DNA of 64,000 bases from an uncultured Myxococcaceae bacterium (GTDB lineage Bacteria; Myxococcota_A; Polyangia; Polyangiales; Ga0077539), in NCBI GenBank assembly GCA_964447205.1, contig CAYUSB010000023.1, forward strand, positions 21,614-85,613, in the 5' to 3' direction. Position 1 is the stretch's first letter, and each line of letters starts with the position of its first letter. This document shows, piece after piece, positions 47,995 to 64,000 of the stretch. The translations under genes were made by a program, and so were the position numbers. Below the pieces are notes generated by a model that was given only the letters and a program-made list of their open reading frames with translations, had not been told where the DNA came from and made no database searches.

Positions 47995-48074
47995 CAAGAG
48001 AAGCCTCCACAAAGGGGAACGGGACCCTATCACGCCTGCGGGCCCTCGCGGGGCTGGCGCGGAGGCCGCGGGCA

Positions 48075-50182: not shown

Positions 50183-50490
50183 GCCGGCAGGGAACCGCAG
50201 CCCCCATGGGCGCGTCAAGGCCCCTGTCCACCCCTGGGATTTGGAGTAGGGGGGACAGAAACTCCAACGGGTTCGCCGCGTCGAGCAGCCACCCCCTGGA
50301 GCTCCAGGCCCTCTTTCTCGTTGACAGATTCTATTTTGTGCGAGCCGACACGACGCCCCTGGATGCCGCGCGAGGCCTCGGCGGTCGACGCGGAGCTCGC
50401 TGGTACCTGCCGCAGTTCTCGTTGTGGGTCCGCAGGTCGAGGCAGCGATCGGCGCAGAGCGACTGGCCCGGCAGACCAACGCCCGCCGTT

Positions 50491-50544
50491 CATTCCAAAC
50501 CCACGTCGGAACACGGGCCGCCGTACATTCCAAACCCACGTCGG
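50491..50544 (+). repeat. 19-bp perfect direct repeat, two copies, period 35
   Basis: CATTCCAAACCCACGTCGG at 50491-50509 and 50526-50544. Confidence 0.85.
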
Positions 50545-50642
50545 TCCAAAAAGGGCCGCGGCGGTGGCCGAGAAATACCCGACGGTCGTGCCTACCCCTG
50601 CCAAATGCCTGATGGTGACGACCCAGGTGCCGCCCTTCTGCA

Positions 50643-50882
50643 ATGGCGATCTTCGAGGTGATGGCCGAACAATTTCGGGGGTGCGTGAACAATCCGGACG
50701 AGGCGACGCGGTGTTCAGCGCCGCTTTCCTCGGACTCTGTGTGCGACTACAACCACCCCGAGCGCGTGGGCGCGCCGATGAACTGCGTCCGATGGGCACA
50801 GGCGGTGGACTTCTGCATGTGGCACGGCGGCTGTGTCCCCATGGAGGCCGTCACCGAAGAGATCCGGCGCCTCCGCCCGTAG
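50643..50882 (+). pseudogene. Fragment of a formylglycine-generating-enzyme (SUMF1/EgtB/PvdO) domain gene
   Basis: FEVMAEQFRGCV and GAPMNCVRWAQAVDFCMWHGGCVPMEA resemble FGE-domain TEVT..QY..CV and HPVNCV.W.QA..FC.W.G.RLPTEAEWE; truncated after 79 aa. Confidence 0.65.
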
Positions 50883-51244
50883 GGCCCAGTCGACGAGTTC
50901 AGGGGTCTCGCATCGGCGGGGTTGCCGCGCCCGAGCACCGCGTCAAGGTGCGCCGCCACGTCGCGACCGCCCTCGAGCGCGCAGGTCTGGAGCGGCGACC
51001 CAGGCGAGGCTTGCCATCGGCTTCGGAGTCGACTCGCAGACACTGCTGGAACCAGCTCCCTACCTGAGCCACGAGCACCCGGCCGTCCGCGCAAGACGCC
51101 CGCGATTCCGCACACACGACGTTCACGCGCAGCGCGAGCACCAGAGTCTGGAGGAAGTTCGCGCGCGCAGGGCGCAGGGCAGCATAATGCCCGGCGGCCG
51201 GAACCGATGTCCCCACCAGGCGACGTCGGTCCGCGCGAGACTCC

Positions 51245-51973
51245 GTGTCAACACTCCCTCCCCCGCCGTGCACGCGCCCCTCCCGCCCACCGGAGCCCCG
51301 TGCGCCCGGCTGGCTGCGCGGCGAGAGCTTCTTTGTCGCGTGGTACGGCGACCCGGCCGCGGCGCCCCGCGAAGCGGCGCGTGTGCGCGACGCGCGTCCC
51401 GCGTTCGTGGTCGTCGGCGCGGGGCTGCACGCGCGCCCCGAGGTGCCGGCGTTCTTCCGCGCGGGGGCGGTGCGCACAGTCGCGTACGTGGCGACGGCGT
51501 GGGGACGGCGCGACGCGTCCGACGTGGCGCGCGAGGCGGCGTGCGCGGGCGCGTCGGGCTACGACGGCGTGTTCTTCGACGAGATCGACCCCGCGGCCGA
51601 TGGGTTCAACCGCGCCGCCGCGGCCGCCGCGCGCGCCGGGTCCGACCGAATCGTGGTGATGAACACCGGGCGGGCGGCGGTTCCCGACGCGCTCTTCGAC
51701 GTGGCCGACGTGGTCTCGGTCGAGAACCAGTGGGACCGTGCCCTCTCGCCCGCGGGACTCCCCCCGTGGCGCTGGATGGCCGTGCAGGGCGACCCCGCGG
51801 CGCTTGCCGCCCCGTCGCTCGACGTGGCGCTTGCGCGGCTGGCGGCGTTCCGGGCGGCGGGGGGCGGGTGGTACTACTCGGGGCCCTGGGCGCCCGAGGG
51901 CTCGACGCACTGGCGTCTCGCCGACTGGCTCGAAGACTTCGCCGCCGCCGCGCGCGCCCTGCCCCCGCCGTGA
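51245..51973 (+). CDS. Spherulation-specific family 4 protein (Sph3-like, GH135 alpha-1,4-N-acetylgalactosaminidase-like)
   Basis: AYVATAWGRR, GYDGVFFDE, IVVMNTG (cf. V.NPG), DVADVVSVEN (cf. T.E), GGWYY; start uncertain and no clear signal peptide. Confidence 0.78.
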   Translation: MSTLPPPPCTRPSRPPEPRAPGWLRGESFFVAWYGDPAAAPREAARVRDARPAFVVVGAGLHARPEVPAFFRAGAVRTVAYVATAWGRRDASDVAREAACAGASGYDGVFFDEIDPAADGFNRAAAAAARAGSDRIVVMNTGRAAVPDALFDVADVVSVENQWDRALSPAGLPPWRWMAVQGDPAALAAPSLDVALARLAAFRAAGGGWYYSGPWAPEGSTHWRLADWLEDFAAAARALPPP

Positions 51974-51986
51974 GCGCGAAGGGCGT

Positions 51987-52886
51987 TCAACGCGGGCGCG
52001 ACGCCGTCGGCCAGATCGAGAGGGTAGGGCATCGGGACTGGGGCGGCGGGTGCCACGACCGTGGGGGGCACGCCGGGGCGACGGAGGGGCAGCGGGAGGG
52101 CGCGCGGGAGGCCGCCGCAGGCCGCCACGTCAGGACGCGTGCGCGGGGGACGGCCGGCTCGGCGGCGCGGCGGGGCACGCCCGGGAACACCGCGGCGAGG
52201 CCGGCGGTGAGGGCGTCGTGGCGGGCGGTGGTCCAGGCGGCGATGGGGCGGTCGAGGGCTGCCGCGAGGTCGCGCGCGCGCGTGAGGAGCCGCGCGACGT
52301 CGCCCGACCCGCCGGGCGTGAGCGGCGCGGCGAACCACACCCGCCGCGCGTGGACCTCGCGCACCACGGCCAGCGCGGGGCGCCCTCGCTCAGGCTGCAC
52401 GGCGTCGAGCGAGAGGGCGAGCGTGGGCACGTCGCGGTAGGCCTCTCGCAGCGGTTCGGGGTCGGTGCGGGGCTGCTCGACCAGCTCGGCGTAGCGGGCG
52501 ACGTAATACGCCAGGGCGTCGTCGGAGAGCCCGATGGAGTGCTCGGCGGCGAGGTCAGCCCGGAGCTGCGCGACGCTCTGCTTGCGCTCGGCGCGGCGCT
52601 GCCCGAGCCACGCGAACACCTCCCAGTCGATCAGCCAGCGCGGGGGCGCGAGGCCCAGCTCCGCGCCCGGAGAGTACGTCCGGCGCGCGCCGGGGCACGA
52701 CGGGTCGCCACAGTGCATCAGCTTGCACGTCACCTGGAGCGGCCCGCCGAACAGGTAGAGCCGGCGGTGTCGGTGGTCGCAGATGCGCATCGGCCGCGCA
52801 CACACGCCGCACGGGCGCTCCTCGTCGGAGGGTTCGAGGATCAGCTTGCGAAAGACGGATCCGGCAGGCCAGCGGTGAGCAACCAT
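51987..52886 (-). CDS. Transposase-derived protein (Zn-ribbon plus HTH plus truncated DDE-like region), probably non-catalytic
   Basis: CGVC..CDH..CGDPSC, FAWLGQRR...IGLSDDAL..Y, LSLDAVQPERG..LAVVRE...RVWFAAPL; AGGAG SD; ends in a low-complexity tail; no flanking IRs seen. Confidence 0.65.
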   Translation of the reverse strand: MVAHRWPAGSVFRKLILEPSDEERPCGVCARPMRICDHRHRRLYLFGGPLQVTCKLMHCGDPSCPGARRTYSPGAELGLAPPRWLIDWEVFAWLGQRRAERKQSVAQLRADLAAEHSIGLSDDALAYYVARYAELVEQPRTDPEPLREAYRDVPTLALSLDAVQPERGRPALAVVREVHARRVWFAAPLTPGGSGDVARLLTRARDLAAALDRPIAAWTTARHDALTAGLAAVFPGVPRRAAEPAVPRARVLTWRPAAASRAPSRCPSVAPACPPRSWHPPPQSRCPTLSIWPTASRPR

Positions 52887-52920
52887 CGGTCTCCTCGGCA
52901 GCGCTTCGCGTCGTTGCCCG

Positions 52921-53206
52921 TTAGCCTACGACCGTTGACGCATTGAGACCATTACCATTTCGCGCGTGGCGGTTCAAGTACTACGACGCCCTATTTCAAC
53001 GCGGAATGCGCGGTGCGGAGGTGCACCGTAAACCTACAAGTAAGGGTGGGTGATCGGCTGTCGCCCCATCGGCCTACACGACAGGTGGACCGCGCAGGGC
53101 GGCGCCACGAGCTGACGGACGAGCGCTTAGCCTTCAAGCGGCAACCGCGACGGAGGCGACAAGTGGGTTATCACGGGCATTCGTTGAGGGTTTAGCCTTC
53201 GAGCGG
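52921..53206 (+). promoter_or_regulatory. Three copies of a 14-bp motif TTAGCCTWCRASCG, candidate regulator binding sites
   Basis: TTAGCCTACGACCG 52921-34, TTAGCCTTCAAGCG 53127-40, TTAGCCTTCGAGCG 53192-205, in a divergent, relatively AT-rich intergenic region. Confidence 0.5.
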
Positions 53207-53354
53207 AGGACCCTGTTTCTACGAGAGATCCAATGCGGTGAGCGCGCTCACGGTCTTTGTCGATTTTCAACGAACACGCTTGACCCTCGGTTTGAGAAGG
53301 GGGATGAATGACATCGTCACCGGCGCCCAACAGATAGGGACGGGAGGCGCACCG

Positions 53355-53369
53355 CGGCACCACCCCTGC
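53355..53369 (+). promoter_or_regulatory. Possible sigma-54 promoter of the Agd3-like gene
   Basis: CGGCACCACCCCTGC: GG at 53356-57 and GC at 53368-69, 10-nt spacing, several mismatches to consensus. Confidence 0.3.
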
Positions 53370-53497
53370 GGGACGTCGGCGGAAAGAAACAGCGGGGTCA
53401 CCGACGGTCGGCGGCCCCTCACGTCCATTCATCCCTTCGCGGCGCCGCACGGTCCGCGAGCCAACGGGGACGTCCGCGCGTGCGACGGAGAAGCGTC

Positions 53498-55486
53498 ATG
53501 AACAAGCGTTGGTCCAGCGTCCTCGGTCGTTTGAGCCTCGCGGCCTCGGTCTGCTTCGCAGCGCAGGGCTGCTACCAGGGCCCCGACGTTGAATCGACCT
53601 CTCAAGCGGTTCGGTCCTCGGAGGTCCATCGCGGCCCGGGCTCGGTCCATCGCGGCCCGGGCTCGGTCCATCGCGGCCCGGTCTCGGTCGAGCACGGCCG
53701 CTCGCGGCCCCAGACCCTGGTGTCGACCACGTCGTCCAGGTCGTCGGCGCGCGTCGCCCCCTCCCTGACGCTCCCCCCGCGCAGCGCGCGGATCCTGGTG
53801 ATCTCGGCCGACGGCTCGGAGGCCGCCCTCCCCGCGATCCGCCAGGCGCTCGATTACCTCGGCACGCCCTACACCGTCCGCATCGCGACCACCGCGGGGC
53901 CGCTCACCGCCAACCAGCTCTCGGTTGACGGGCGCGGGAACTACCAGGGCGTGATCCTGACGACCGCGAGCCTCGCCTTCTACGACGGATCCGGCTGGCG
54001 CAGCGCCCTCAGCCCCGACGAGTGGCAGGTACTCTGGAACTACGAGGCCACGTACGCGGTGCGCCAGGTCTCCTGGTACACGTACCCCACGCCGGAGCTC
54101 GGCTTCGCCTGGGGCACCTCGGTCGACACCAGCGCCGTCGCCCTCGAGGTCAAGGTCACCGACGCCGGGCGGCAGGTGTTCCCGTACGTGACGCCCAACG
54201 CCCGGGTCGCGGTGCGCGACGCATACACCTACCTCTCGGTCGCCGCCGACCCGACGGCCACACCGCTGCTCACGGACGACGAAGGGCACGCCCTCGCCCT
54301 GGTCAACCGCTACCCCGACGGCCGCGAGAACCTCGCGCTCACCTTCGACTCGAGCCCCCACCAGGTCCACGCCCTTGTGTTCTCGTACGGCGTGATCGAC
54401 TGGGTGACCCGCGGGCTGTTCCTCGGCGCGCGCCACACGTACCTCTCCGCCCAGGTCGACGACATCTTCCTCGGCAACGACCTCTACACCGGCGGCGAGT
54501 ACCGGATGACCGGCGACGACCTGCGCGCCGCGGTCGCCTGGCAGCGCGCCCTGCAGGCCCGCCCGGCCAGCGCCGGACTGCGGCTCGACATGGTCTACAA
54601 CGGCGAGGGCACTGTCGCCGGCGAGTACCCCTCCGACACGCTCACCCCCGCGGCGAGCTCGCTCCAGGGCGAGTTCAAGTGGATCAACCACACCTACTCG
54701 CACCTGAACCTCGACGCCGTCGACTACGCCACCGCGTTCGACCAATACCGCGACAACATCCAGGTCGCCCAGCGCATGCGCTTCTCGGCCTTCACCCGCA
54801 CGAACCTCGTCACCGGCGAGGTCTCCGGGCTCTTCAACCCCGCCGCCATGCAGGCCGCGGCGGACGTGGGCGTGCGCTACGTCGTCTCCGACACCTCGCG
54901 CCCCGGCCAGGACAACCCCTCCCCCAACGCCGGGATCTACAACGCCCTGGCGCCCTCGATCCTGATGATCCCGCGGCGGCCGACCAACCTCTTCTACAAC
55001 GTCTCGACGCCCGAGCAGTGGGTCGCCGAGTACAACGACTTCTACCGCGTCTTCTGGGGCCGCGACCTGTCCTACAGCGAGATCCTCGACCGCGAGACCG
55101 ACGTGCTCCTGCGCTACATGCTCCGCGGCGAGATCGACCCGTGGATGTTCCACCAGTCCAACCTCCGCGCGTACGACGGCAGCCACACCCTGCTCGGCGA
55201 CCTCATCGCCCGGCTGCTCGAGCGCTACAACGCCCTCGTCACCCTGCCCGTCGTCAGCCCCACCATGGACGAGACCGGCCGCCAGGTGGCGTCCCGCATG
55301 CGCTTCAACGCCTCGGGCGTGACCGCGACCATCGTCCCCGGCCAGAGCATCACCCTCACCGCCCCGCGCGCCGCCGTCGTGCCCGTCACCGGCCTCGCCT
55401 CCCGCGGCGCCGAGTCGTACGCCGGCGAGACGATCTCGTACGTCAACCTCTCGGCCGGCGCCTCAGTCACCCTCCGCCTCGAGTAA
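53498..55486 (+). CDS. Agd3-like (CE18) secreted/lipoprotein polysaccharide deacetylase
   Basis: Signal ending AAQGC; ILVISADG..ALDYLGTPY N-domain; QVDDIFLG, RLDMVYNGEG, WINHTYSH, LVTGEVSGL, IPRRPTNLFYN, WMFHQSNL (DD/HxxxH/H metal set as in Agd3). Confidence 0.8.
   Translation: MNKRWSSVLGRLSLAASVCFAAQGCYQGPDVESTSQAVRSSEVHRGPGSVHRGPGSVHRGPVSVEHGRSRPQTLVSTTSSRSSARVAPSLTLPPRSARILVISADGSEAALPAIRQALDYLGTPYTVRIATTAGPLTANQLSVDGRGNYQGVILTTASLAFYDGSGWRSALSPDEWQVLWNYEATYAVRQVSWYTYPTPELGFAWGTSVDTSAVALEVKVTDAGRQVFPYVTPNARVAVRDAYTYLSVAADPTATPLLTDDEGHALALVNRYPDGRENLALTFDSSPHQVHALVFSYGVIDWVTRGLFLGARHTYLSAQVDDIFLGNDLYTGGEYRMTGDDLRAAVAWQRALQARPASAGLRLDMVYNGEGTVAGEYPSDTLTPAASSLQGEFKWINHTYSHLNLDAVDYATAFDQYRDNIQVAQRMRFSAFTRTNLVTGEVSGLFNPAAMQAAADVGVRYVVSDTSRPGQDNPSPNAGIYNALAPSILMIPRRPTNLFYNVSTPEQWVAEYNDFYRVFWGRDLSYSEILDRETDVLLRYMLRGEIDPWMFHQSNLRAYDGSHTLLGDLIARLLERYNALVTLPVVSPTMDETGRQVASRMRFNASGVTATIVPGQSITLTAPRAAVVPVTGLASRGAESYAGETISYVNLSAGASVTLRLE
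53623..53685 (+). repeat. 21-bp tandem repeat, 3 copies (VHRGPGS) in the deacetylase linker
   Basis: GGTCCATCGCGGCCCGGGCTC twice, then GGTCCATCGCGGCCCGGTCTC. Confidence 0.9.
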
Positions 55487-55493
55487 CCCCTCC

Positions 55494-56798
55494 TCAACCT
55501 GCAGGCGGCCGCAGCGAACGGCGCGACGCCCGCCCGCCGAGCCCCGCCCCCGGCGCACGCCGCAGGGGGAACAGCCCCATCAACGTCAAGGCCGCGACCC
55601 CGAGCAACGACCACACCGGCAGCGCCAGCGCCGGAAGCACCGTCGCCCACCCGCGCGGCGCGAGCGCACCCCACGTCGCCGCCGTGAGGATCAGCGCCCC
55701 GAGCGCCCGGCGAGCCCGACGCGCGGCGTGATGCCTCCGGGGCCCCCGCACCAGCATCAGCAACACCGCCACCGACGCGCAGCCCGCGACCAGCGCCGGC
55801 GACGTCGGCCCGGACGCGGCGCCCGCCCCGACAAGCCCCCGCCCCCCGATCGCCAGAAACGCCCCCAGCGTCTCGCCCAGCGCCAGCGGGAGCAGCGCCG
55901 GGAACCATCGCGCGCGAGGCAGCCGTCGCCGGGCCCCCACGCTCGCCACCGCGCTCGCAACCCAGGCGAGAACGCCGCCCGCGGGGTGCGTCAACGACGA
56001 GAGCAGCACCACCCGGGGCAGACGCCCCGCATGCCCCGTCGCACCGAGCGGCGAGGCGCATCCCCACGCCGCCACCAGCGGGGCCGCCCACGCGAGCGTC
56101 GGGCGCTGCCCCAGGACCACCGCTGCCAGAGGTGCCGCGCCCACCACCGCCGCCGGCCAGCGCCCCACGCCGGGCGCCAGCCGCACCAGGAGCGCCCCCG
56201 CGAGCGACGCGCACAGCCACGCGATCGCCGCGCCGAGCGCCGGCCCGCACGCCCGCGGCGGGAGCCCGACGAGCGCGCCCGCCCACACCGAGAGCATGTC
56301 CGTAGAGCCGTCGGGGGCCCGGCCGATGAACGCCGCCGACGCGACGCACGCCGCCAGCAGCGCCGCCCTGCCCGCCCACGCCACGCGCGCCTGCAGCGAG
56401 TGCCGGCCGTCGTCGGCCCGCGCCGCCGCGTCGAGGGTCTCACGCACCCTCGCTCGCCAGTCCGCCCGCATTGATGACACGAGCCGGTCGGCGCGCGAGG
56501 CGCGGCCCGCACGGGCGCTCACGTCCCGCAGCGACGGCTCGCGCCGCCGAAGCCGCGACGCCCAGATGACCACCGCCAGCATCCCCAGCAGCGCGCCGCG
56601 GGAGACCGCGCCGACGCACCACAGCAGCGTCATCGCGGAGCACAGAAGCAGCGCCGCTCGAAGGTGGCGCGCGACGCCGTCCCGCGGCAGGGAGCGGTCG
56701 GGCGCGAGGTGGGCGAGGTTGTAGAGCAGCGCGCCCCAGAGCAGGAGCCTCGCCGCGAGCAGGACCTGCACGGTGCGATGGAAGCCTTCAGGGTGCAT
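55494..56798 (-). CDS. Hypothetical polytopic membrane protein, last gene of the pelF/pelG-like operon
   Basis: ATG 56798 lies 5 nt after the PelG-like stop; about 10 hydrophobic segments; no family recognised. Confidence 0.6.
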   Translation of the reverse strand: MHPEGFHRTVQVLLAARLLLWGALLYNLAHLAPDRSLPRDGVARHLRAALLLCSAMTLLWCVGAVSRGALLGMLAVVIWASRLRRREPSLRDVSARAGRASRADRLVSSMRADWRARVRETLDAAARADDGRHSLQARVAWAGRAALLAACVASAAFIGRAPDGSTDMLSVWAGALVGLPPRACGPALGAAIAWLCASLAGALLVRLAPGVGRWPAAVVGAAPLAAVVLGQRPTLAWAAPLVAAWGCASPLGATGHAGRLPRVVLLSSLTHPAGGVLAWVASAVASVGARRRLPRARWFPALLPLALGETLGAFLAIGGRGLVGAGAASGPTSPALVAGCASVAVLLMLVRGPRRHHAARRARRALGALILTAATWGALAPRGWATVLPALALPVWSLLGVAALTLMGLFPLRRAPGAGLGGRASRRSLRPPAG

Positions 56799-56803
56799 GC
56801 GGC

Positions 56804-58360
56804 TCAGTACGCGGCGTAGTAGCGGTGGTCGATGCGCGCGAAGAAGCGCCGCGCGCGCATCATCATGCCCGCGGTGAACACCACGGCGCCGGCGGTCATC
56901 CCCGCGGCGGCGGCCTCGGGGGCCCACAGGCGCGAGGCCACATACCCGACCACCGCCGCGGTGCCCACCGCGGGCCAGAGCGCGCGCAGCACCGCTTCGC
57001 CGCGGGCCAGGGTGAAGAACCAGAGCGAGAGCAGCAGGCCCCAGGAGAGCACCTGGAAACCCGCGCCAAGCCACAAGAACGTGCGCGCGACGGCCGGGTC
57101 GAGTACCGAGGCGGCGAGTCGGTGGGCAAGTCCGCGCGCGGCGAGGTGGCGCGGCACCGCCCACGCGAGCGAGAGGTTGGCCGCCGAGACGGTCGTCAGC
57201 AGCGCGAACGAGCGCGCGCCGAAGCGCTTCATCGCCGCGCGGAAGTCCCCGCGCTGCCCGACCTTGAGCCCGTGCTGCAGGCTCTCAAGCCGCTCGTTGA
57301 AGGCGTGCACGAAGTGCTCGAGGAGGCTCATGGGCAGCACGAAGCTCGCGAGCGCCCACTCGGCGCCGAGCTCGTAACCGGCGTGGAAGCGCAGCAGCGC
57401 GGGCGCGGCGTGGGCGGGCGCGGTCCAGACCATCGCGCGGTCGAGGAAGATCAGCAGGAAGTACCCGAGGCCGTACACGATGAACGTGAGGTTGCTGCCG
57501 AGGATCACGTCGAGCCGACGCGCCCGCGAGCGGGCAGCGCTGCCGGGCGGCGGCGGGCCGAGCCGACGGGCGACCAGGAGCAGCGCCGCCAGCGCGACCG
57601 TGAGGATCATCCCGAGCTGCGCGCCGTGCACCGACGCGCCCTCGAACCGCACGAGGGCGCCGACCGCGATGGCGCCGAGCGTGGTGAGCGCCAGCGCCTG
57701 CACGCGCATCGCCAGCGCCTGCATCGCCGCGACCGAGACCCAGAGCCATCCGAGCGAGATGAAGTACGCGAGCGCGAGCGCGAAGAGCCGCCACGGGAGC
57801 GGCTCGAAGAGGAGCTGCAGCGCGACGGCGGTGGCGACGCAGGCCGCGCCCAGGGCGAACCCGACGCGCAGCAGGTCGCCGAGCACCTCGCGCAGGCGGG
57901 CCCCATCACGGGCGGGGTCGAGCACGTGCGCCTGCCGCCCGATGGTCATCACCATCGCCCCGGTGGCGACGAGGCTGGCGATCATGGCGAGCCCGACCGC
58001 GGTCGCCTGCGACTCGTCGTAGTCGAACGAGCCCACCAGCCAGTGCCGCGTGGCGAACCCGACCGCGAGTTGCGCGAGCATGGGCCAGGCGAAGAACGAC
58101 CCGCGCAAGAGCCGCCCGACGAACGCGAGCCACGGGCGCACGACGCCGTCGCGCGGCGGCATCGAGGATGGCCGCCACCGGGGCAGGGCGTGGAACACCT
58201 GCTCGGCGAACGCGAAGAGGTCGGGGCAGCCGAAGCGCTCGCGGGCGTCCTGGTCGCGCAGGCCTTCGGCCTCGAGCAGGGCGGCGACGGTCCACACGTC
58301 GAGCGGGCGGCGCGCGGTGGTCGCGAGGACCTCGGCCCAGTGGCGCGCCGGGTCGCTCAC
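56804..58360 (-). CDS. pelG: PelG-like exopolysaccharide exporter with extra N-terminal soluble domain
   Basis: GTG overlaps the pelF stop; N-terminal DVWTVAALLEAEGLRDQDARERFGCPDLFAFAE; about 12 TM; FLDRAMVW..YELGAEWA and C-terminal FFARIDHRYYAAY like PelG. Confidence 0.7.
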   Translation of the reverse strand: MSDPARHWAEVLATTARRPLDVWTVAALLEAEGLRDQDARERFGCPDLFAFAEQVFHALPRWRPSSMPPRDGVVRPWLAFVGRLLRGSFFAWPMLAQLAVGFATRHWLVGSFDYDESQATAVGLAMIASLVATGAMVMTIGRQAHVLDPARDGARLREVLGDLLRVGFALGAACVATAVALQLLFEPLPWRLFALALAYFISLGWLWVSVAAMQALAMRVQALALTTLGAIAVGALVRFEGASVHGAQLGMILTVALAALLLVARRLGPPPPGSAARSRARRLDVILGSNLTFIVYGLGYFLLIFLDRAMVWTAPAHAAPALLRFHAGYELGAEWALASFVLPMSLLEHFVHAFNERLESLQHGLKVGQRGDFRAAMKRFGARSFALLTTVSAANLSLAWAVPRHLAARGLAHRLAASVLDPAVARTFLWLGAGFQVLSWGLLLSLWFFTLARGEAVLRALWPAVGTAAVVGYVASRLWAPEAAAAGMTAGAVVFTAGMMMRARRFFARIDHRYYAAY

Positions 58361-59865
58361 GCGACGCGCCCCCGCGAGCCTGCGTCGAGCAGACGGTAGA
58401 TCTCCTCGTAGCGCTTGAGCTGGCGCTGGACGGTGAAGAGCGAGACCACCCGGTCGCGGGCGAGGCGGGCGAGGCGCCGGCAGCGCTCGTGGTCGGTGAG
58501 AAGCGCCGCCATGGCCCCTCCGAGCGCCTCGGGGTCGCGCGGGGGGACCACGATGCCCGTGTCGCCCACGGCCTCGCGCACGCCGCCCACGTCGGTCACC
58601 ACGCAGGGCACCCCGCAGGCCATGGACTCCAGCACCGTGTACGGAAAGCCCTCGGAGATGGACGACAGCACGCTGATGTCCCCCTCGCAGTAGAGCGTGT
58701 GGGGCTGGGCGTGGTGGCCCCGGAGGAACACCACCTCGCCGAGGTCGAGCGACGCGATCAGCGCGCGGCAGCGCTCGGTGTACGGCACGTCCGCGGTGAG
58801 CGAGCCGTAGATGTTGAGCAGCAGGTCGGGCACCGTGCGGCGCGCGACGGCCGCCGCCCGGATCATCGTCTCGATGTCCTTGAGGGCGAAGATGCGCGCC
58901 GCGGCGACGGCGACGGGCCGCCCGCGCAGCGCCTCGGGCTTGGGCGACGGGCGGAACTTGGAGGTGTCGACGCCGTTGTGAACGACGCGGATGCGCTCCT
59001 CGGGCGCGCCCCACGGGAGCTGCCAGCGGGTGTTGCAAGTGGCCACCGGGGCGATGACGTCGGCCACGGCGTAGCAGGCCCGCGCGATCACCCGGGCGAC
59101 CCCCATGAGGAACCGCCGCACGAACGCGCCGTGCCCGCTCGCGCTGACCGAGAGGTAGCGCTCGCGGAGGTAGACCCCGTGCTCGGTGAGCAGAAAGCAC
59201 GTCCCGCGCTCGAGGCGGGCGACGATTCCCGGCAGCGCGCACGACGACGCGACCGTCGCGTGGAACACCGTCACCCCCTCCACCCGGAACTCGAGGGGCA
59301 TGAGCAGGTGGTAGAGCCACCGGGCGCAGAGGCTGACCTCCGCGAGCCGCGGCTCGGGGTCGCGCCCGGCTTCCTCGGACGCCGCGACGAAGGCGTCCCA
59401 TACCGCGGCGGTGCGCATCACGCAGCGGTAGTCGTGGCGCCGCAGAAAGCGCCCCATCGCCACCAGGGCGTCGACCAGGGCGTCGTCGTCGGCGGCGGCG
59501 GCGGCGGGCGTGAACACCTCGCGCAGCACCGCCGAGAGCGCGGGCACGAAGCCCTCTCGGACGCGGCGCTCGGTGGAGCGCGACTGCCGCTCCAGCACGC
59601 CCGAGAACGGCCCCCGCAGGGAGCGCGTGGAGGGGTCTCCGGTGGGCCAGAGCGCGACCTGGTGCACGTCGCGGATGTTGGGCGCGATGGGCAGCGCCGG
59701 CCCGACGTGGTCGGAGCCGGTGACCGCCAGCACGGAGAAGTCCACGCCGTCGATGCCGGCGCAGAGCTGCTCGCACCACGTGCTGACGCCGCCGCCGTGG
59801 AAGGGGTACGTCCCCTCGGTCGCGAGCATCACGTGGGGGCGGGAGGGATCTGGGGAGGCGCCCAC
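58357..59865 (-). CDS. pelF: PelF-type GT4 glycosyltransferase (DUF3492 plus GT4)
   Basis: LATEGTYPFHGGGVSTW, HATVASSC, LLTEHGVYLRER, RVVHNGVD, RIFALKDIETMIRA, SSISEGFPYTVLESMACG (E-x7-E), TDVGG. Confidence 0.9.
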   Translation of the reverse strand: MGASPDPSRPHVMLATEGTYPFHGGGVSTWCEQLCAGIDGVDFSVLAVTGSDHVGPALPIAPNIRDVHQVALWPTGDPSTRSLRGPFSGVLERQSRSTERRVREGFVPALSAVLREVFTPAAAAADDDALVDALVAMGRFLRRHDYRCVMRTAAVWDAFVAASEEAGRDPEPRLAEVSLCARWLYHLLMPLEFRVEGVTVFHATVASSCALPGIVARLERGTCFLLTEHGVYLRERYLSVSASGHGAFVRRFLMGVARVIARACYAVADVIAPVATCNTRWQLPWGAPEERIRVVHNGVDTSKFRPSPKPEALRGRPVAVAAARIFALKDIETMIRAAAVARRTVPDLLLNIYGSLTADVPYTERCRALIASLDLGEVVFLRGHHAQPHTLYCEGDISVLSSISEGFPYTVLESMACGVPCVVTDVGGVREAVGDTGIVVPPRDPEALGGAMAALLTDHERCRRLARLARDRVVSLFTVQRQLKRYEEIYRLLDAGSRGRVA

Positions 59866-59872
59866 GGCGCGT

Positions 59873-60883
59873 TCAGGCGGCGACGAGCGCGCGCCAGGAG
59901 GTGGTGAAATCGCGCCACCGCGCGACGGCGAGGCGCGCGCCGAGGGCGGGGTCGGTGCCGCGGCGAAGGAGCGCGTCGGCCCGCGCCGCCCAGGCCTCGC
60001 GCGACCAGGCGAGGCGGGTGATCAGCGGGCTCCCCCGGAGCGCGGCCGCGTCGCTGAGGAGAACCGGGATCCCGCGGGACTCGGCCTCCAGGGCGGCGAA
60101 GGGGCTGGCCTCGAGCCGCGACGGGAGCGCCAGCACGCCGATGGGGCTGCGGCCCCAGGGGTCTCCCTCTCCGAGCTCCCAGTCGGTCGCGTCGGAGCCC
60201 CAGCGCTCGCCGACGGGGATGCCGATCGCGACCGAGGCGCCGCCGAACGCGCGCGCGAGGTCTTCGAAGCGGTCGATGCCCTTCACCCTGGAGAAGCGCC
60301 CCACGAAGCCCAGGCGGGCGGGCGAGGCGTCGACGAGGGTGGACACGGCGGCCGGCGGCGGGACGGCGTTGGGGATCATCCGCACCGTGCGGGCGCCCTC
60401 GCTGAAGGCGCGGCGGGTGGTGCGGTCGGTCACGCCCACGACGCCGCGGCAGGCGAGCGCCACGCGGCGGCGGCGGCGACGCGCGCGCTCGGCCTCCAGC
60501 GGGCGCGAGGCGGCGGTGAGGGGCCGACCCGACTCGCACACGGCGGCGCCGTGGAGGATCTCCCGCACCAGGTCGCCGTGCTCGACGTACCAGGTGCGCC
60601 GGGCGAGGTCGGGGCGCACACGCAGCAGCGCCTCGGCGGCCTCGAGGCCGCTGGCGAGGTAGGTGGCGGCGTCGGGCACCGCCCGCAGGTCGTCGACGCG
60701 CTCGACCGATCGCGCGCTTGGGGGCGGGGCGAAGCGGTCGGCGCGGCAGGGCCCCGGGCCGAGGCTGACGACGCCGACGCGACAGGCGTCGAGCGCGAGG
60801 AGCAGGTGCTGCGTCCAGGTGGAGAGGCCGCCCGTGCGCTGCGGATAGGCGCCCTCGGTGACGAGGCAGACGTCGAGAGTCAT
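59873..60883 (-). CDS. Second, shorter PelF-like GT4 glycosyltransferase
   Basis: CLVTEGAYP..TGGLSTW, YVEHG, RMIPNAV, FVGRFSRVKG, LPSRLEASPFAALEA (E-x7-E); GGAG SD. Confidence 0.75.
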   Translation of the reverse strand: MTLDVCLVTEGAYPQRTGGLSTWTQHLLLALDACRVGVVSLGPGPCRADRFAPPPSARSVERVDDLRAVPDAATYLASGLEAAEALLRVRPDLARRTWYVEHGDLVREILHGAAVCESGRPLTAASRPLEAERARRRRRRVALACRGVVGVTDRTTRRAFSEGARTVRMIPNAVPPPAAVSTLVDASPARLGFVGRFSRVKGIDRFEDLARAFGGASVAIGIPVGERWGSDATDWELGEGDPWGRSPIGVLALPSRLEASPFAALEAESRGIPVLLSDAAALRGSPLITRLAWSREAWAARADALLRRGTDPALGARLAVARWRDFTTSWRALVAA

Positions 60884-61024
60884 GCGCGCTCCCGGGCGGC
60901 GCCTGGAGCGGCCTCCGCCAGATCGACCTGTGGGGGCAGCGCCGCCGCGGAGGATTGGAACCGTTGCACTTTGGACATCAACACCTTCCCAGGAACGCGT
61001 TACAGGCCAAGGTCGAACTTTGCG

Positions 61025-61039
61025 GCAAGATCGCCTCCA
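61025..61039 (-). promoter_or_regulatory. Possible sigma-54 promoter of the GT4-GT4-PelG operon
   Basis: Minus strand TGGAGGCGATCTTGC has GG-N10-GC with perfect TTGC, about 140 nt upstream of ATG 60883; it overlaps inverted repeats pairing with 61090-61104. Confidence 0.35.
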
Positions 61040-61133
61040 TGGCTAACACGCCGCGCGGCGGCGCAACAAAAACATTCCACGGCGCGGGTGCGATCTTGGA
61101 GGCGCCGGGCGGTGGTGGCATGGTTGCCTTCAC

Positions 61134-62561
61134 ATGTCGTTCCTTCGGGATCTTTTCAGCGACAGCAGGGAGCGCGCGCGGCCGCTCCACGACGCGCTGA
61201 TCGAGGCGCTCGGGAAGGTCGACGGGGGCGACGAGCCGGGCGCGCTCGACGTCCTCGCCGAGGCGGTGCGCGGGCGCTTTCAGCTCGCCTTGCTGGAGCT
61301 TTACATGCGCGACCGCGGCGTGCTGCGCCGCGTGGGCACGGCCACCGACGTGGGGGTCGACCGCAGGAGCATCCGCCCCGGGCCGCTCGACGGGGCCGTC
61401 CCCGCGGCGGCGTTGCAGAACGTGGGGGCGACCGGGTCGCTCAGCGGGTCGGGCTGGGTGGCGCTGCCGGGCGGGCGGGTGTGGTGGCTGGCGGCCGACG
61501 CGCAGGCGTTGTCGCGGAGCGTGGCCGAAGACGCCCCGGCGGCGCGGGCGATGGCGGGGGCTGTGATGCTCGCCGCGCGCGGGGCGATGACCCCGCAGAA
61601 CGACCGCTCGCAGTGGATCCACGACGACGTGCAGCGGCGCGTCGCGCGGGCGGCAGCGGACACCCGCGCCGCGGTGGAGCTGTTCCTGCGAATGGCGCTG
61701 ACGGGCTTTTCGGGCGAGGGCGGCGCGGTGGTCAGCATCGAGGAGGGCACGGGCGAGCGCGTGACGTGGGCCTCGGCCGGCGCGGTGGCGGCCGACGCGG
61801 CGGGCGTCGACGCGGTGCGGTCCTCCGGGCGCTGGGTCGCGGAGGTGGTCGATGCGGCGCGGTTCGCCCCAAGCGCGCGTTCTGTGTATGCCGTGGCGCA
61901 GCCGCATCGGGGGGGCGTGCTGTTGGTCGCGATCGCGGCGGGCGCGGCGGGAGCGACGGCGCCGGGCGAGGTCGCGTACAGTCGGCTCGAACAGGCGGTG
62001 GCGGTGATCCGGTCGTTGGTCGAGGGGCAGGAGGCGGCGCGGCGCGCGAGCGCGCACATTCAACAACTCGTCGACGGGCTCGTGACGATGGTGGAGACGA
62101 TCGCGGAGCCGTCGCGGGGGCACCACGCGCGGGTGTCGTCCGAGGCTGAGCGCATCGGGCGTCGGCTGGGCGTCGAGCCGGAGCGCTTCGCGGCGCTGAT
62201 GCGGGCGGTGCAGGTGCACGACATCGGGCGCATCGGGGTGGCGGCCGACCCGACAGGGAACGTGGTGGAGTTCCTGCACCCGACGGTGGGCGGCTCGCTG
62301 CTCGAGGCGCTGGGCGAGCCGCAGAACGTCTCGGACCTTGTGCGGGTGCACCACGAGCGCTGGGACGGACAGGGCTTTCCGCTCGGGGTGGCGCCCGCGG
62401 AGACCGACCTGGCCGCCTGGGCGCTGGTCGCCGCGCAGGACTACGCGGACCACGGGGAGGAGCCCGCGGACGAGGCTTCGAGGCGGCGGTGGGCGCGCGA
62501 TCACGGCCCGGGGCTGTTGCCGCCGGCGGTGCTCGAAAAGCTCTCGCAGGGTTGGGCGTAG
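61134..62561 (+). CDS. GAF-like plus degenerate HD-GYP domain protein
   Basis: C-terminal GHHARVS, VHDIGRIG, LHPTVG, HHERWDGQGFPLG; shortened HD-to-HP loop and no RPY motif. Confidence 0.78.
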   Translation: MSFLRDLFSDSRERARPLHDALIEALGKVDGGDEPGALDVLAEAVRGRFQLALLELYMRDRGVLRRVGTATDVGVDRRSIRPGPLDGAVPAAALQNVGATGSLSGSGWVALPGGRVWWLAADAQALSRSVAEDAPAARAMAGAVMLAARGAMTPQNDRSQWIHDDVQRRVARAAADTRAAVELFLRMALTGFSGEGGAVVSIEEGTGERVTWASAGAVAADAAGVDAVRSSGRWVAEVVDAARFAPSARSVYAVAQPHRGGVLLVAIAAGAAGATAPGEVAYSRLEQAVAVIRSLVEGQEAARRASAHIQQLVDGLVTMVETIAEPSRGHHARVSSEAERIGRRLGVEPERFAALMRAVQVHDIGRIGVAADPTGNVVEFLHPTVGGSLLEALGEPQNVSDLVRVHHERWDGQGFPLGVAPAETDLAAWALVAAQDYADHGEEPADEASRRRWARDHGPGLLPPAVLEKLSQGWA

Positions 62562-62568
62562 GGCCCCG

Positions 62569-64000
62569 GTGCGCCTCGCCCCCGCGCTGGCGGCGCTGGC
62601 GTGCGCCGGCCCCGCGTACGCCGACGAGTTGCAAGACCGCATCGCCGCGCTCGTCGCCGCCGACCGCGCGCGCGAGGCGCTCCCGTTGGCGCTCGCGCGG
62701 GCGCGAGCCACGGGCGCTGACATCGAGGCCTGGGAGCAGGTCGCGACGCTCGCGGGCTGGACCTCCTCGAGCGCCGAGGCGTTGGAGGCGTCGGCGGCGC
62801 TGGTCGCGCTGCGCCCGGAGGACCGCGCCCGGCGGCTCGAGCTCGCGCGGCTGCTGCTCTGGGCGCGGCGCGCGGCCGAGGCGTTGCCGCATGCGCGGTG
62901 GCTGGTCGCGTCGCCTGCTGAGCGCGACCCGCAGGTGCTGGAGGTCGCGGTGCGGGTCTTCGCCGACGGCGGGGCGCCCGCGGAGGCGGTGCGCGCGGCG
63001 GAGCGCTGGGTGGAGGTGAGCGGCGGCGCGACCGACGCGCGCTGGGCGCTGGCGGACCTCACCCACTGGTCGTGGCGCTGGCGCACGGCGCGCGCCCAAT
63101 ACGCGGCGTTGCGCGCGAGCCCGACCGAGCGGGCGCGGACCGAGGCGCGCGCGGAGCTGCTGCGGCACGACCACCCCACCCTGGCGGCGCTCGATGGCGT
63201 CGGGTGGCAGGACAACCAGGGGGTGGTGTACGTCTCGGCCGCGGGCGACGCGACCGTACAGCTCCCGGCGCCGGCGGTGCTGGTCGCGCGCGCCGAGGCG
63301 GGGCGCTGGGCGCAGCGCGAACGTTCGGTGGAGTTCGCGAACGTGCAGGCGGGCGTACGGCTCGAGCGCTGGGACGCGGTGCGCCCGGAGGCGACGGCGG
63401 GCGTGGAGCACGACACCGAAGGGCACGTCGCGCTCTTCGGCAACGTGGGGGTGCGCTTCTCGCTGGCGGGGCGGGTGTTCGGGCGGCTGTGGCTCCAGAG
63501 CGACCGGTACCGGGCGGCGACCGAGGCGATCCGGCAGGACGTGCGCGCGACGGGGCCCGCGTGGACCGTCTACGCGGAGCCGAGGCCGTGGATGACGGTC
63601 TCCTCGGAGGCCTCGCTTTGGTGGCTGAGCGACGGCAACCTCCGCGGGCGCGCGCTGCTGGCGGCGGGGGTTCACAACCTCGGGCGTTGGCAGGCCGAGC
63701 CGCGCGCGTGGGCGACGTACGAAGGCTTCCGCGCACTACGGGCCGGGGCGCTTCCGTACTTCACGCCGACGGATCCGTGGACCTGGGGCTGCGACCTCAC
63801 GCTACGGTACACGTCGGGCGCGCCCGTGCGCGTCGAGGTGAGCGCGGGCTTCGCGGTGCAGGGCGGCACGGTGCTCTTCCGCCCCTCGGCGACGGTGCGG
63901 CTGGAACTGGCTCGTCACCTGCGGATCCAGCTCACGGCGGCCCACGTGGGCTCGCCACAGTACCAGCAGACGCGGGTCGATGGCGGCCTGGCCTGGCTTT
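62569..64000 (+). CDS. TPR plus outer-membrane beta-barrel polysaccharide export protein (PelB/PgaA/BcsC-like), 3' end just outside window
   Basis: Not in the ORF track. My own translation of frame 1 from GTG 62569 is stop-free to 64000: signal peptide ..AYA, TPR helices (RLELARLLLWARR, RWALADLTHW), then amphipathic strands with LSDGN.R and YFTP, ending TRVDGGLAWL. Confidence 0.75.
   Translation, partial: MRLAPALAALACAGPAYADELQDRIAALVAADRAREALPLALARARATGADIEAWEQVATLAGWTSSSAEALEASAALVALRPEDRARRLELARLLLWARRAAEALPHARWLVASPAERDPQVLEVAVRVFADGGAPAEAVRAAERWVEVSGGATDARWALADLTHWSWRWRTARAQYAALRASPTERARTEARAELLRHDHPTLAALDGVGWQDNQGVVYVSAAGDATVQLPAPAVLVARAEAGRWAQRERSVEFANVQAGVRLERWDAVRPEATAGVEHDTEGHVALFGNVGVRFSLAGRVFGRLWLQSDRYRAATEAIRQDVRATGPAWTVYAEPRPWMTVSSEASLWWLSDGNLRGRALLAAGVHNLGRWQAEPRAWATYEGFRALRAGALPYFTPTDPWTWGCDLTLRYTSGAPVRVEVSAGFAVQGGTVLFRPSATVRLELARHLRIQLTAAHVGSPQYQQTRVDGGLAWL

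What the first reader, a model, noticed from the sequence alone, without database searches (positions are those of the whole stretch)
51245..64000. Hybrid Pel / galactosaminogalactan-type exopolysaccharide system in a myxobacterium-like diderm
Seen: one locus with PelF-type GT4 twice, a PelG-like exporter, an unknown membrane protein, a Sph3-like GH135, an Agd3-like CE18 deacetylase, a degenerate HD-GYP protein and a TPR/beta-barrel exporter. Established: Pseudomonas Pel uses PelA (GH166 plus CE) and the c-di-GMP receptor PelD; Aspergillus GAG uses Sph3 and Agd3; both polymers are partly deacetylated alpha-1,4-GalNAc-rich. No pelA, pelC, pelD or pelE is recognisable within the window. Inference: a mosaic pathway for a cationic GalN/GalNAc polymer using fungal-type modifying enzymes, a monoderm-style inner-membrane module and its own outer-membrane channel. 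I do not know of a description of this architecture, but cannot exclude one.
Basis: partly seen in the sequence, partly recalled or inferred. Interest (0 to 1): 0.88.

Follow-up and report, generated by a model that had tools for sequence, protein, structure and literature searches.

The report
Diderm variant of bacterial Agd3–PelF polysaccharide cluster
This is a real gene cluster that most likely makes and exports a sticky, partly deacetylated GalNAc-type (Pel/GAG-like) polysaccharide. The general kind was described bioinformatically in 2020, so only its particular Gram-negative layout is new.

Summary
They are:
- a GH135/Sph3-like protein (A);
- an Agd3-type CBM87+CE18 deacetylase with every catalytic residue (C);
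- a PelF equivalog (F);
- a short, very divergent PelF paralogue (G);
- a multi-pass protein of a family distantly related to PelG (E);
- a second multi-pass protein of no known family (D);
- an HD-GYP protein (H);
- a TPR plus 16-strand β-barrel exporter (I).

A ninth conserved gene (B) was overlooked.

Corrections:
- E fails the PelG HMMs directly and is linked only through relatives.
- H keeps its metal-binding motifs, so it is not clearly degenerate.
- I is PelB/PgaA/BcsC-like by fold only.

No PelA, C, D or E was detected in the window, nor in the fullest related cluster, L082.

The architecture is not undescribed. Bamford et al. 2020 (PMC7229062) catalogued 'Agd3, GT-B, TM, GH135/GH114' operons in Terrabacteria, and Agd3 next to canonical pel genes in Gram-negatives. 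This locus combines that Terrabacterial-type core with a small outer-membrane porin and the D family. That pairing recurs only in Myxococcota-like relatives. It is a new variant of a known, experimentally uncharacterised kind. The polymer chemistry is inferred, not shown. Interest is moderate.

The parts
51245..51973 (+). A: GH135 (Sph3/spherulin-4-like) protein, 242 aa, no signal peptide
   Evidence: Pfam Spherulin4 37 bits against a cutoff of 30.2. A profile of its family hits Sph3 structures 5c5g/5d6t at E 3e-13. A's D112-E113 aligns with Sph3 D166-E167, and A's E160 with Sph3 E222. D166A is a published inactive variant. A 66% identical orthologue lies next to an I-like gene in L087.
51987..52886 (-). 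B: conserved 299-aa Cys-rich protein of unknown family, divergent from C; candidate regulator
   Evidence: No Pfam or PDB hit. Faint ISKra4 transposase N-terminal similarity, E 0.004. A 58% identical orthologue sits in the same divergent position next to the Agd3 gene in L084-L086.
53128..53206 (+). Two copies of TAGCCTTC[A/G]AGCGG, 65 bp apart, in the B-C intergenic region; candidate operator
   Evidence: These are the only 2 matches in the window, against 0.02 expected. The motif is also present twice in the orthologous intergenic region of L084, followed by a conserved TTGAC-containing block.
53498..55486 (+). C: Agd3-type deacetylase (CBM87 + CE18), 662 aa, with signal peptide
   Evidence: Pfam Agd3_CE 125 bits and CBM87_Agd3 63 bits. 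It matches Agd3 structure 6nwz at E 1e-36. D321/D322, H398/H402, R493 and M550/H552 align with Agd3 D377/D378, H510/H514, R613 and M666/H668. These residues are invariant in 20 bacterial homologues.
55494..56798 (-). D: roughly 10-TM inner-membrane protein of an undescribed family
   Evidence: No Pfam, NCBIfam or PDB match. It is homologous to the proteins encoded next to E or I in L082, L084 and L087; shared motifs are AAR[ML]xLWxALL and HPxGGxL. The single-sequence AF2 model is unusable, pLDDT 48.
56804..58360 (-). E: multi-pass membrane protein of a family distantly related to PelG, with a roughly 90-aa N-terminal cytoplasmic extension
   Evidence: No direct HMM hit. An exhaustive search found 328 relatives. 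19 of 61 relatives match PF16933 PelG, and a 79% identical homologue carries PF16933. All 17 genome loci with an E-family gene also have a PelF-like GT4 within 10 kb.
58357..59829 (-). F: PelF-type GT4 glycosyltransferase, 490 aa; its stop overlaps the start of E by 4 nt
   Evidence: NCBIfam PelF equivalog 171.8 bits against a cutoff of 100. DUF3492 141 bits and GT1 102 bits. EX7E motif at residues 393-401.
59873..60883 (-). G: short, divergent PelF paralogue, 336 aa
   Evidence: Only the DUF3492 N-terminus matches, at 33 bits. It keeps the TEGxYPxxxGGxSTW, EHG and EX7E (258-266) motifs but lacks about 150 residues of the DUF3492 insert. A 50% identical orthologue lies upstream of PelF in L082.
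61134..62561 (+). H: HD-GYP domain protein with a roughly 300-aa N-terminal domain of unknown type; 8 nt upstream of I
   Evidence: Pfam HD_5 and HD. It aligns to HD-GYP phosphodiesterases 5z7c and 4mcw. It retains GHH (329), HD (362-363), H382 and HHERWDGQGFP (406-416). It is not found in the related clusters L077, L082, L084 or L087.
62569..64000 (+). I: outer-membrane exporter, 478 aa (stop at 64005), with signal peptide, TPR-like helices and a 16-strand beta-barrel ending in ...AWLF
   Evidence: AF2 pLDDT 80.9; helices span 20-199 and 16 strands span 205-477. Foldseek finds BcsC 9b8h (2.6e-13), PelBC 9h80_M (5.7e-11) and PgaA 4y25 (TM 0.78 normalised to the target). There is no sequence match to Pfam PelB_C or to a Burkholderia PelB barrel. 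Orthologues of 46-54% identity occur in L077, L082, L084 and L087.

Best explanation
The locus encodes a synthase-dependent exopolysaccharide machine of the Pel/GAG kind, adapted to a two-membrane cell.

Shown by family membership:
- F is a PelF equivalog.
- C is a CE18/CBM87 deacetylase with an intact active site.
- A is a GH135 with the Sph3 acid residues.
- I has the TPR-plus-16-strand-barrel fold of PelB, PgaA and BcsC.

Inferred mechanism:
1. F, possibly together with its short paralogue G, polymerises a UDP-HexNAc at the cytoplasmic face. By analogy this would be UDP-GalNAc, giving alpha-1,4-GalNAc.
2. The PelG-related protein E carries the chain across the inner membrane.
3. The secreted Agd3-type enzyme C removes part of the N-acetyl groups, which makes the polymer cationic and adhesive.
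4. The GH135 protein A trims or sizes it.
5. The small porin I exports it.

The undescribed membrane protein D travels with I in relatives. It most likely couples the inner-membrane step to the periplasmic or outer-membrane step, in place of PelD/PelE.

Control differs from Pel. There is no PelD-type c-di-GMP receptor. Instead an HD-GYP protein is co-transcribed with the porin. B and a repeated operator-like motif sit upstream of the deacetylase gene.

Evolutionarily, this is the Terrabacterial 'Agd3-GTB-TM-GH135' core combined with diderm-specific parts.
For: - Family assignments.
- Operon structure: G-F-E-D lie on one strand with gaps of 43, -4 and 5 nt. H and I are 8 nt apart.
- Conserved synteny in independent assemblies:
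  - L082: GH114, I, G, F, E, D-like, GH114, Agd3.
  - L084: I, D-like, E, F, B, Agd3.
  - L077: GH114, E, I, F, Agd3.
  - L087: GH114, GH135, I, D-like.
- Survey of 79 genome loci holding an Agd3-like gene: 38 have a PelF-like GT4, 17 an E-family protein (every one with a PelF-like GT4 within 10 kb), 25 a GH114 and 9 a GH135.
- F is 35-40% identical to the GT4 of E-family loci but about 28% identical to the PelF of canonical Burkholderia-type operons.
- Published biochemistry ties each enzyme family to alpha-1,4-GalNAc/GalN polymers: Pel (PMC9135694), Agd3 (PMC7229062) and Sph3 (10.1101/113696).
Against: - No enzyme, polymer or phenotype has been tested for any bacterial member.
- E does not pass the PelG HMM itself. 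A direct profile comparison with a putative Burkholderia PelG is weak, at 5% probability.
- A and its orthologues lack any signal peptide, which does not fit a periplasmic trimming role.
- No UDP-GlcNAc 4-epimerase or GH114 is present in the window.
- D's role is guesswork.
- H is absent from every related cluster, so it may be a neighbour rather than a component.
- G may be catalytically active or inert.
- The rest of the genome is unavailable, so PelD/E-like partners elsewhere cannot be excluded.
Confidence: 0.65

Rival explanations
1. It is an ordinary Pel system whose remaining genes (pelA, pelC, pelD, pelE) lie elsewhere: just past the contig break or at a second locus. Agd3 and GH135 would be accessory additions, as in Stigmatella or Burkholderia.
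For: Gram-negative Agd3 genes next to canonical pel genes are documented and were confirmed here in Burkholderia L067. The accessible contig stops 679 bp beyond the window at an IS91-like fragment. In L087 the I/D/GH135/GH114 module sits without PelF or E within 10 kb, so split systems exist.
Against: L082 shows a complete-looking cluster flanked by unrelated ABC-transporter and two-component genes, with no PelA/C/D/E. The E family and the F lineage are those of the Terrabacterial clusters, which lack PelD/E. The E-family HMM found no hit in the canonical Burkholderia-type loci L067, L071, L075 and L078. I has no sequence similarity to PelB.
Confidence: 0.15
2. The machine makes a different polymer (for example a GlcNAc-, Gal- or mixed-sugar chain). 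The bacterial CE18 and GH135 enzymes would then have specificities unlike their fungal namesakes.
For: No bacterial CE18, GH135 or E-family-associated GT4 has been characterised. Identity to the fungal enzymes is low; only a profile of A's family, not A itself, reaches Sph3. There are two GT4 paralogues, F and G. No epimerase is in the locus. Actinobacterial versions carry extra GT-A and epimerase genes.
Against: Three independent families tied to alpha-1,4-GalNAc/GalN chemistry (PelF, CE18, GH135) co-occur here, and GH114 joins them in relatives. The catalytic and CBM87 architecture of Agd3 is retained.
Confidence: 0.15
3. The hydrolase and deacetylase genes serve degradation of foreign (fungal GAG or bacterial Pel) polymers by a predatory myxobacterium. 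They would merely neighbour an unrelated GT4 operon.
For: Myxococcota are predators. A is separated from the main operon by B. GH114, GH135 and I occur without PelF nearby in L087.
Against: A has no signal peptide, so it is not secreted by the standard route. Agd3-like genes sit directly beside PelF and E-family genes across several phyla, including non-predators. The locus has an exporter-type barrel, not an uptake system.
Confidence: 0.05

Closest known systems
Terrabacterial 'Agd3, GT-B, TM, GH135/GH114' operons catalogued by Bamford et al. 2020 (Nat Commun 11:2450, Supplementary Data 2; e.g. Streptomyces lavendulae, Kytococcus, Thermus)
   Same: The same four-part core: a CE18/CBM87 deacetylase, a DUF3492 GT4, a multi-pass membrane protein and a GH135. 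PelD and PelE are absent. In my survey the Actinobacteria/Chloroflexi loci carry the same E family, and their GT4 is 35-40% identical to F.
   Different: Those hosts have no outer-membrane exporter gene, D family, PelF paralogue G, HD-GYP or B in the cluster (B has one jackhmmer hit, in Chloroflexia locus L032). This locus adds them and sits in a diderm. None of these operons has been tested experimentally.
Gram-negative Agd3-containing canonical pel operons (Stigmatella aurantiaca, Burkholderia, Polaromonas, Nitrosomonas; Bamford 2020; Burkholderia L067 here)
   Same: Diderm hosts, one of them a myxobacterium. Agd3 is combined with PelF and an outer-membrane TPR/barrel exporter.
   Different: Those keep full-length PelB (1296 aa, PF24604), PelD (GAF plus PF16963) and a PelE-like TPR protein; the paper also lists PelC and PelG for them. 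Their PelF is only about 28% identical to F. The window has none of these by sequence. It uses the E family, the D family and a 478-aa porin instead.
Pseudomonas aeruginosa Pel (pelABCDEFG)
   Same: Synthase-dependent logic: a cytoplasmic PelF GT4, a PelG-type membrane protein, periplasmic de-N-acetylation and a TPR/beta-barrel exporter. F passes the PelF equivalog model.
   Different: No PelA (GH166+CE21), PelC, PelD or PelE. The deacetylase is CE18 and the hydrolase is GH135. The exporter is about 40% of PelB's length and unrelated in sequence. There is no PelD-type c-di-GMP receptor.
Aspergillus fumigatus galactosaminogalactan cluster (uge3, gtb3, agd3, ega3, sph3)
   Same: Agd3-type CE18+CBM87 with CM1-4 intact, and Sph3-type GH135 with the conserved acid residues.
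   Different: No Gtb3-type synthase, no Uge3 epimerase and no Ega3/GH114 in the window. Synthesis uses bacterial PelF/PelG-type proteins. The GH135 here has no membrane anchor or signal.
Gram-positive pel operon (Bacillus cereus pelDEA_DAFG; Whitfield 2020; PMC13254593)
   Same: PelF and PelG with a three-domain deacetylase of Agd3-like arrangement.
   Different: B. cereus has PelD and PelE, and its deacetylase is CE26/CBM114, not CE18. It has no outer-membrane component.

Membership tests
Pel system (pelABCDEFG) | PelF: cytoplasmic GT4 with DUF3492 N-terminal domain | tested here: met
   F scores 171.8 bits on NCBIfam NF038011 PelF (cutoff 100), full length, and 141 bits on DUF3492.
Pel system (pelABCDEFG) | PelG: 12-TM PF16933 protein | tested here: inconclusive
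   E has no PF16933 or NCBIfam hit. 19 of 61 family members do hit PF16933. hhalign against a putative Burkholderia PelG gives 5% probability.
Pel system (pelABCDEFG) | PelD: c-di-GMP receptor (TM + GAF + PF16963) | tested here: not met
   No Pfam hit in any gene. tblastn of Burkholderia PelD against the whole window gives E 0.52. The positive control was detected in L067.
Pel system (pelABCDEFG) | PelE, PelA and PelC present | tested here: not met
   No matching gene among the nine. tblastn with a PelE-like protein, a putative PelC and GH114 queries gave no significant hit. No unassigned ORF space remains in 51.2-64.0 kb. Sequence beyond 64.7 kb was not available.
Pel system (pelABCDEFG) | PelB: long TPR protein with PF24604 C-terminal barrel | tested here: not met
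   I has no PF24604 hit at E<=10. hhalign against the Burkholderia PelB barrel gives 0.2%. Only the fold class is shared.
Synthase-dependent EPS outer-membrane exporters (PelB/PgaA/BcsC class) | Periplasmic TPR repeats fused to a 16-strand beta-barrel | tested here: met
   The AF2 model (pLDDT 80.9) has 12 helices plus 16 strands. The five best Foldseek hits are BcsC (three entries), PelBC and PgaA. I also has a signal peptide and a C-terminal Phe.
CE18 / Agd3 | CBM87 + CE domain with CM1 DD, CM2 HxxxH, CM3 R and CM4 MxH | tested here: met
   Both Pfam domains score above cutoff. All seven residues align to Agd3 6nwz. Deacetylase activity was not tested.
GH135 / Sph3 | (beta/alpha)8 spherulin-4 domain with the D166/E167/E222 equivalents | tested here: met
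   Pfam 37 bits against 30.2. The family profile hits 5c5g at 3e-13, with D112/E113/E160 aligned. The identity of E167 and E222 as catalytic rests on my recollection of Bamford 2015; D166A is confirmed in 10.1101/113696.
Fungal GAG cluster | Gtb3-type synthase, Uge3 epimerase and Ega3 GH114 present | tested here: not met
   No GH114, epimerase or large membrane GT was found in the locus or in the 24 kb upstream.
Bacterial Agd3 operons (Bamford 2020) | Agd3 homologue adjacent to a cytoplasmic GT-B, a multi-span membrane protein and GH135 and/or GH114 | tested here: met
   C, F, E and A lie within 9 kb.
HD-GYP phosphodiesterases | HD metal ligands and the HHExxDGxGYP motif | tested here: inconclusive
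   H329/H330, H362-D363, H382 and HHERWDGQGFP are present, with Tyr replaced by Phe. The segment after the motif is atypical. Activity and ligand were not tested.

The most novel reading that the evidence does not exclude
Myxococcota-like diderms run a self-contained Pel/GAG-type secretion system that dispenses with the PelD/PelE receptor-scaffold pair. It would use two undescribed parts instead. One is the fast-evolving roughly 10-TM D family, which travels with the porin. The other is a minimal 478-aa TPR-barrel exporter unrelated in sequence to PelB. A cytoplasmic GH135 and HD-GYP-linked control would complete it. That would amount to an independently assembled trans-envelope route for a cationic GalNAc polymer.
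Probability: 0.3. Interest if true: 0.6.

Novelty: new variant of a known kind. Interest (0 to 1): 0.42.

Why it matters
Pel and GAG are the model cationic adhesins of bacterial and fungal biofilms. How their machineries are related is an open evolutionary question; Bamford 2020 proposed bacterial-to-fungal transfer of the GAG cluster.

This locus shows that the Agd3/GH135 'fungal-type' enzymes form a widespread bacterial module (more than 770 close homologues of C). It also shows that the PelF plus PelG-like core can be combined with different envelope-spanning parts.

If the D protein and the mini-porin prove sufficient for export without PelD/E, the minimal requirements for synthase-dependent secretion across two membranes would be narrower. 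It would also be an example of c-di-GMP control not routed through PelD.

Practically, it flags uncharacterised CE18, GH135 and GH114 enzymes as candidate biofilm-active hydrolases and deacetylases.

Tried and rejected
- Direct PelG assignment of E by Pfam or NCBIfam: no hit.
- PDB sequence searches for E, its family profile, D's family and B: nothing meaningful.
- AF2 of D without an alignment: pLDDT 48, so it was not used for fold search.
- hhalign of the I family against the Burkholderia PelB barrel: no similarity.
- Rfam scan of 50-64 kb for riboswitches, for example c-di-GMP: only a sub-threshold chance hit.
- Metagenome scans for more I- or E-family loci: none, then three short fragments.
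- Looking past the window end: the accessible contig stops after 679 bp. The 125.6 kb contig that also carries these proteins was not retrievable.
- B as a junk transposase remnant: rejected because of the 58% identical syntenic orthologue.
- The locus as a chance juxtaposition: rejected on synteny.
- Literature search for experimental work on bacterial Agd3 clusters: none found in the held library.

Full report
**1. What is in the sequence**

The window is 69-76% GC, so long spurious ORFs abound. GC3 frame plots resolve nine genes between 51245 and the window end. These agree with independent gene calls on two public contigs carrying identical proteins: ENA k139_503459 (86.4 kb) and a 10.5 kb Logan contig.

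- A: 51245-51973, plus strand.
- B: 51987-52886, minus strand.
- C: 53498-55486, plus strand.
- D: 55494-56798, minus strand.
- E: 56804-58360, minus strand.
- F: 58357-59829, minus strand.
- G: 59873-60883, minus strand.
- H: 61134-62561, plus strand.
- I: 62569-64005, plus strand.

G-F-E-D form one tightly packed minus-strand operon with gaps of 43, -4 and 5 nt. H and I are 8 nt apart. B and C are divergent across a 610-bp spacer. The genes from about 28 to 50 kb are unrelated: AlaRS, an AI-2E transporter, a sulfatase, SdhAB, a flavin monooxygenase, an amidohydrolase-LTD protein and a PLP decarboxylase. The cluster therefore starts at A. The accessible contig ends 679 bp beyond the window, at what looks like an IS91-type transposase fragment.

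**2. Family assignments**

- **F** is a PelF equivalog: NCBIfam 171.8 bits against a cutoff of 100, plus DUF3492 and GT1.
- **C** is an Agd3-type enzyme: Agd3_CE 125 bits and CBM87 63 bits. It matches structure 6nwz at E 1e-36. Residues D321/D322, H398/H402, R493 and M550/H552 align to the experimentally essential D377/D378, H510/H514, R613 and M666/H668. These positions are invariant in 20 bacterial homologues.
- **A** passes Pfam Spherulin4, 37 bits against 30.2. A alone does not reach Sph3 in the PDB. A nine-member family profile does, at E 3e-13, aligning A's D112-E113 and E160 with Sph3 D166-E167 and E222. D166A is a published inactive variant.
- **G** shares only the N-terminal DUF3492 signature and the C-terminal EX7E region with F. 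It is 23% identical and about 150 residues shorter. It has a 50% identical orthologue in the same position in L082.
- **E** has no Pfam or NCBIfam hit, even at permissive thresholds. An exhaustive search found a modest family of 328 representatives. 19 of 61 members match PF16933 PelG, the best at 1.4e-11, and a 79% identical homologue carries that domain. E is therefore a member of a sister family of PelG, not a PelG by the curated model. The family has a conserved roughly 90-residue cytoplasmic N-terminus (LE-EG-LRD-DA) and an invariant D307-R308.
- **H** aligns with HD-GYP phosphodiesterases and keeps H329/H330, H362-D363, H382 and HHERWDGQGFP. 'Degenerate' is not justified beyond the Tyr-to-Phe change and an atypical tail.
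- **I** has a signal peptide and ends in ...AWLF. AF2 with six homologues (pLDDT 80.9) gives 12 TPR-like helices followed by a 16-strand barrel. The five best Foldseek hits are BcsC (three entries), PelBC (9h80) and PgaA (4y25, TM 0.78 normalised to the target). It has no sequence similarity to Pfam PelB_C or to a Burkholderia PelB barrel.
- **D** is a roughly 10-helix membrane protein with no match anywhere. Its single-sequence model is unusable.

**3. Absence of canonical Pel parts**

Pfam on every gene found no PelA, PelB, PelC, PelD or PelE. tblastn against all six frames of the 64 kb used Burkholderia PelB, PelD, a PelE-like protein, putative PelC and PelG ORFs, and five GH114 proteins as queries. 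None gave a significant hit; only the Burkholderia PelF query did, matching F and G. As a positive control, the same Pfam scan recognises PelB_C (264 bits), PelD_GGDEF (105 bits), DUF3492 (342 bits) and GH114 in Burkholderia locus L067.

**4. Relatives**

The Agd3-like protein belongs to a very large cross-phylum bacterial family, with more than 772 hits mostly around 50% identity. Hosts include Chloroflexota, Actinomycetota, Cyanobacteria, Acidobacteriota, Verrucomicrobiota and Myxococcota.

I surveyed 79 species-representative genome loci, many of them short:

| Feature within 10 kb of the Agd3-like gene | Loci |
|---|---|
| PelF-like GT4 | 38 |
| E-family protein (every one with a PelF-like GT4 within 10 kb) | 17 |
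| GH114 | 25 |
| GH135 | 9 |

F is 35-40% identical to the GT4 of E-family loci, which are mostly Chloroflexi, Actinobacteria and Acidobacteria. It is about 28% identical to the PelF of canonical Burkholderia-type operons, where the E-family HMM finds nothing.

The closest clusters are metagenomic:

- L084: I(54%) > < D-like < E(39%) < F(57%) < B(58%) | C(64%) >.
- L082: GH114 > < I(48%) | G(50%) > F(52%) > E(39%) > D-like > GH114 > C(53%) >. It is flanked by unrelated genes.
- L077 (Myxococcales MAG): < GH114 < E | I(46%) > < F | C >.
- L087 (Polyangiales MAG): GH114 > GH135(A, 66%) > I(52%) > < D-like. No PelF lies within 10 kb.

Three points follow. The porin I and the D family co-occur in four of five distinct I-containing loci, and are seen only in Myxococcota-like contexts. 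B is a conserved component. H is not found in any relative. The host is probably a member of Myxococcota; this is an inference from nearest homologues and domain content, with no marker phylogeny run.

**5. Prior knowledge**

Bamford et al. [quoted passage not shown] GH114 is common, spherulin-4 genes occur in some Actinobacteria, and Gram-negative operons include Pel outer-membrane homologues.

Their Supplementary Data 2 lists, for example:

- Streptomyces lavendulae: 'Agd3, GTB, TM, GH135, GH114'.
- Kytococcus: 'Agd3, GTB, TM, GH135'.
- Stigmatella aurantiaca: 'GH114, Agd3, A,B,D,E,F,G,GH'.
- Burkholderia: 'GH114, PelC, PelB, GH114 - Agd3, D,E,F,G'.

Bundalovic-Torma et al. [quoted passage not shown] No experimental study of any bacterial Agd3 cluster was found. 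The general architecture is therefore known at the bioinformatic level. What is not in those lists is the Terrabacterial-type core (no PelD/E, E family) inside a diderm, combined with a minimal PelB-class porin, the D family, a PelF paralogue and B.

**6. Mechanism**

The best-supported model runs as follows:

1. F, with or without G, polymerises a UDP-HexNAc.
2. E translocates the chain.
3. C de-N-acetylates part of it in the periplasm.
4. A trims it.
5. I exports it.
6. D links the inner-membrane step to the envelope-spanning step.

H, which is co-transcribed with I, and B, with the repeated TAGCCTTC[A/G]AGCGG motif, provide regulation. Family memberships and synteny are shown. Substrate, polymer, topology of A, the role of D and any c-di-GMP link are inferred.

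The main loose end is that A and its orthologues have no signal peptide.

**7. Verdict**

The biosynthetic interpretation is plausible. The claim of an undescribed architecture is overstated. This is a new variant of a known, uncharacterised kind, and its interest is moderate.

Noticed in passing
window 53128-53141 and 53193-53206; conserved block 53278-53318: A direct repeat TAGCCTTC[A/G]AGCGG occurs twice, 65 bp apart, in the B-C divergent spacer. These are the only matches in 64 kb (0.02 expected). The same motif occurs twice in the orthologous spacer of L084, followed by a conserved TTGAC-containing promoter-like block. It is a likely operator, possibly for B.
   Followed up: partly
window 51245-51973; L087 9143-9850; L003, L032, L038, L048: The GH135-like protein and its orthologues in Polyangiales and Chloroflexi loci have no signal peptide or membrane anchor. 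Other bacterial GH135 domains do: L056 has a signal peptide, and L058 carries the domain inside large ORFs (775 and 838 aa) with Thr/Pro-rich regions. A cytoplasmic Sph3-like enzyme would be unexpected.
   Followed up: partly
L001 12873-13546 (window 64006 onward, outside the window): Just after gene I, the minus strand encodes a fragment resembling IS91-family transposases (..FHVHAGVRLEEDDRVGLERLCRY..), and the contig ends there. This is probably an assembly break at a repeat.
   Followed up: no
L087 8160-13030 (Polyangiales MAG GCA_046351575.1): GH114, GH135, the I-like porin and a D-like membrane protein form a module with no PelF or E-family gene within 10 kb. The envelope part can therefore be separated from the synthase part.
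   Followed up: partly
window 53624-53686 (C residues 43-63): A tandem heptapeptide, VHRGPGS VHRGPGS VHRGPVS, lies in the linker after the signal peptide of the Agd3-like protein.
   Followed up: no
window 56804-58360 (E residues 1-90) and alignment A2: The E family has a conserved soluble N-terminal segment (VAAxLE-EG-LRD-DA...FG..DLF.LA; E30 and G33 invariant in 61 sequences). Its function is unknown. It could be a docking or regulatory element.
   Followed up: no
window 50150-51245: About 1.1 kb upstream of A shows no clear GC3 coding signal in any frame, despite several long ORFs. It may be non-coding or a decayed gene.
   Followed up: no
window 55486-55494: C and D converge with only 7 nt between their stop codons. 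That leaves no room for separate terminators.
   Followed up: no
L062 6297-10654; L073 880-5199; L057, L072: Several genomes carry two tandem Agd3-like genes next to the PelF/E pair. Bamford 2020 also listed this for some Actinobacteria.
   Followed up: no
window 35584-38391 and 44182-48081: Two large proteins lie upstream: a sulfatase with a MopE-type Cu-binding motif, and a 1299-aa protein with amidohydrolase, thrombospondin type 3 and lamin-tail domains. Neither is related to the cluster.
   Followed up: no
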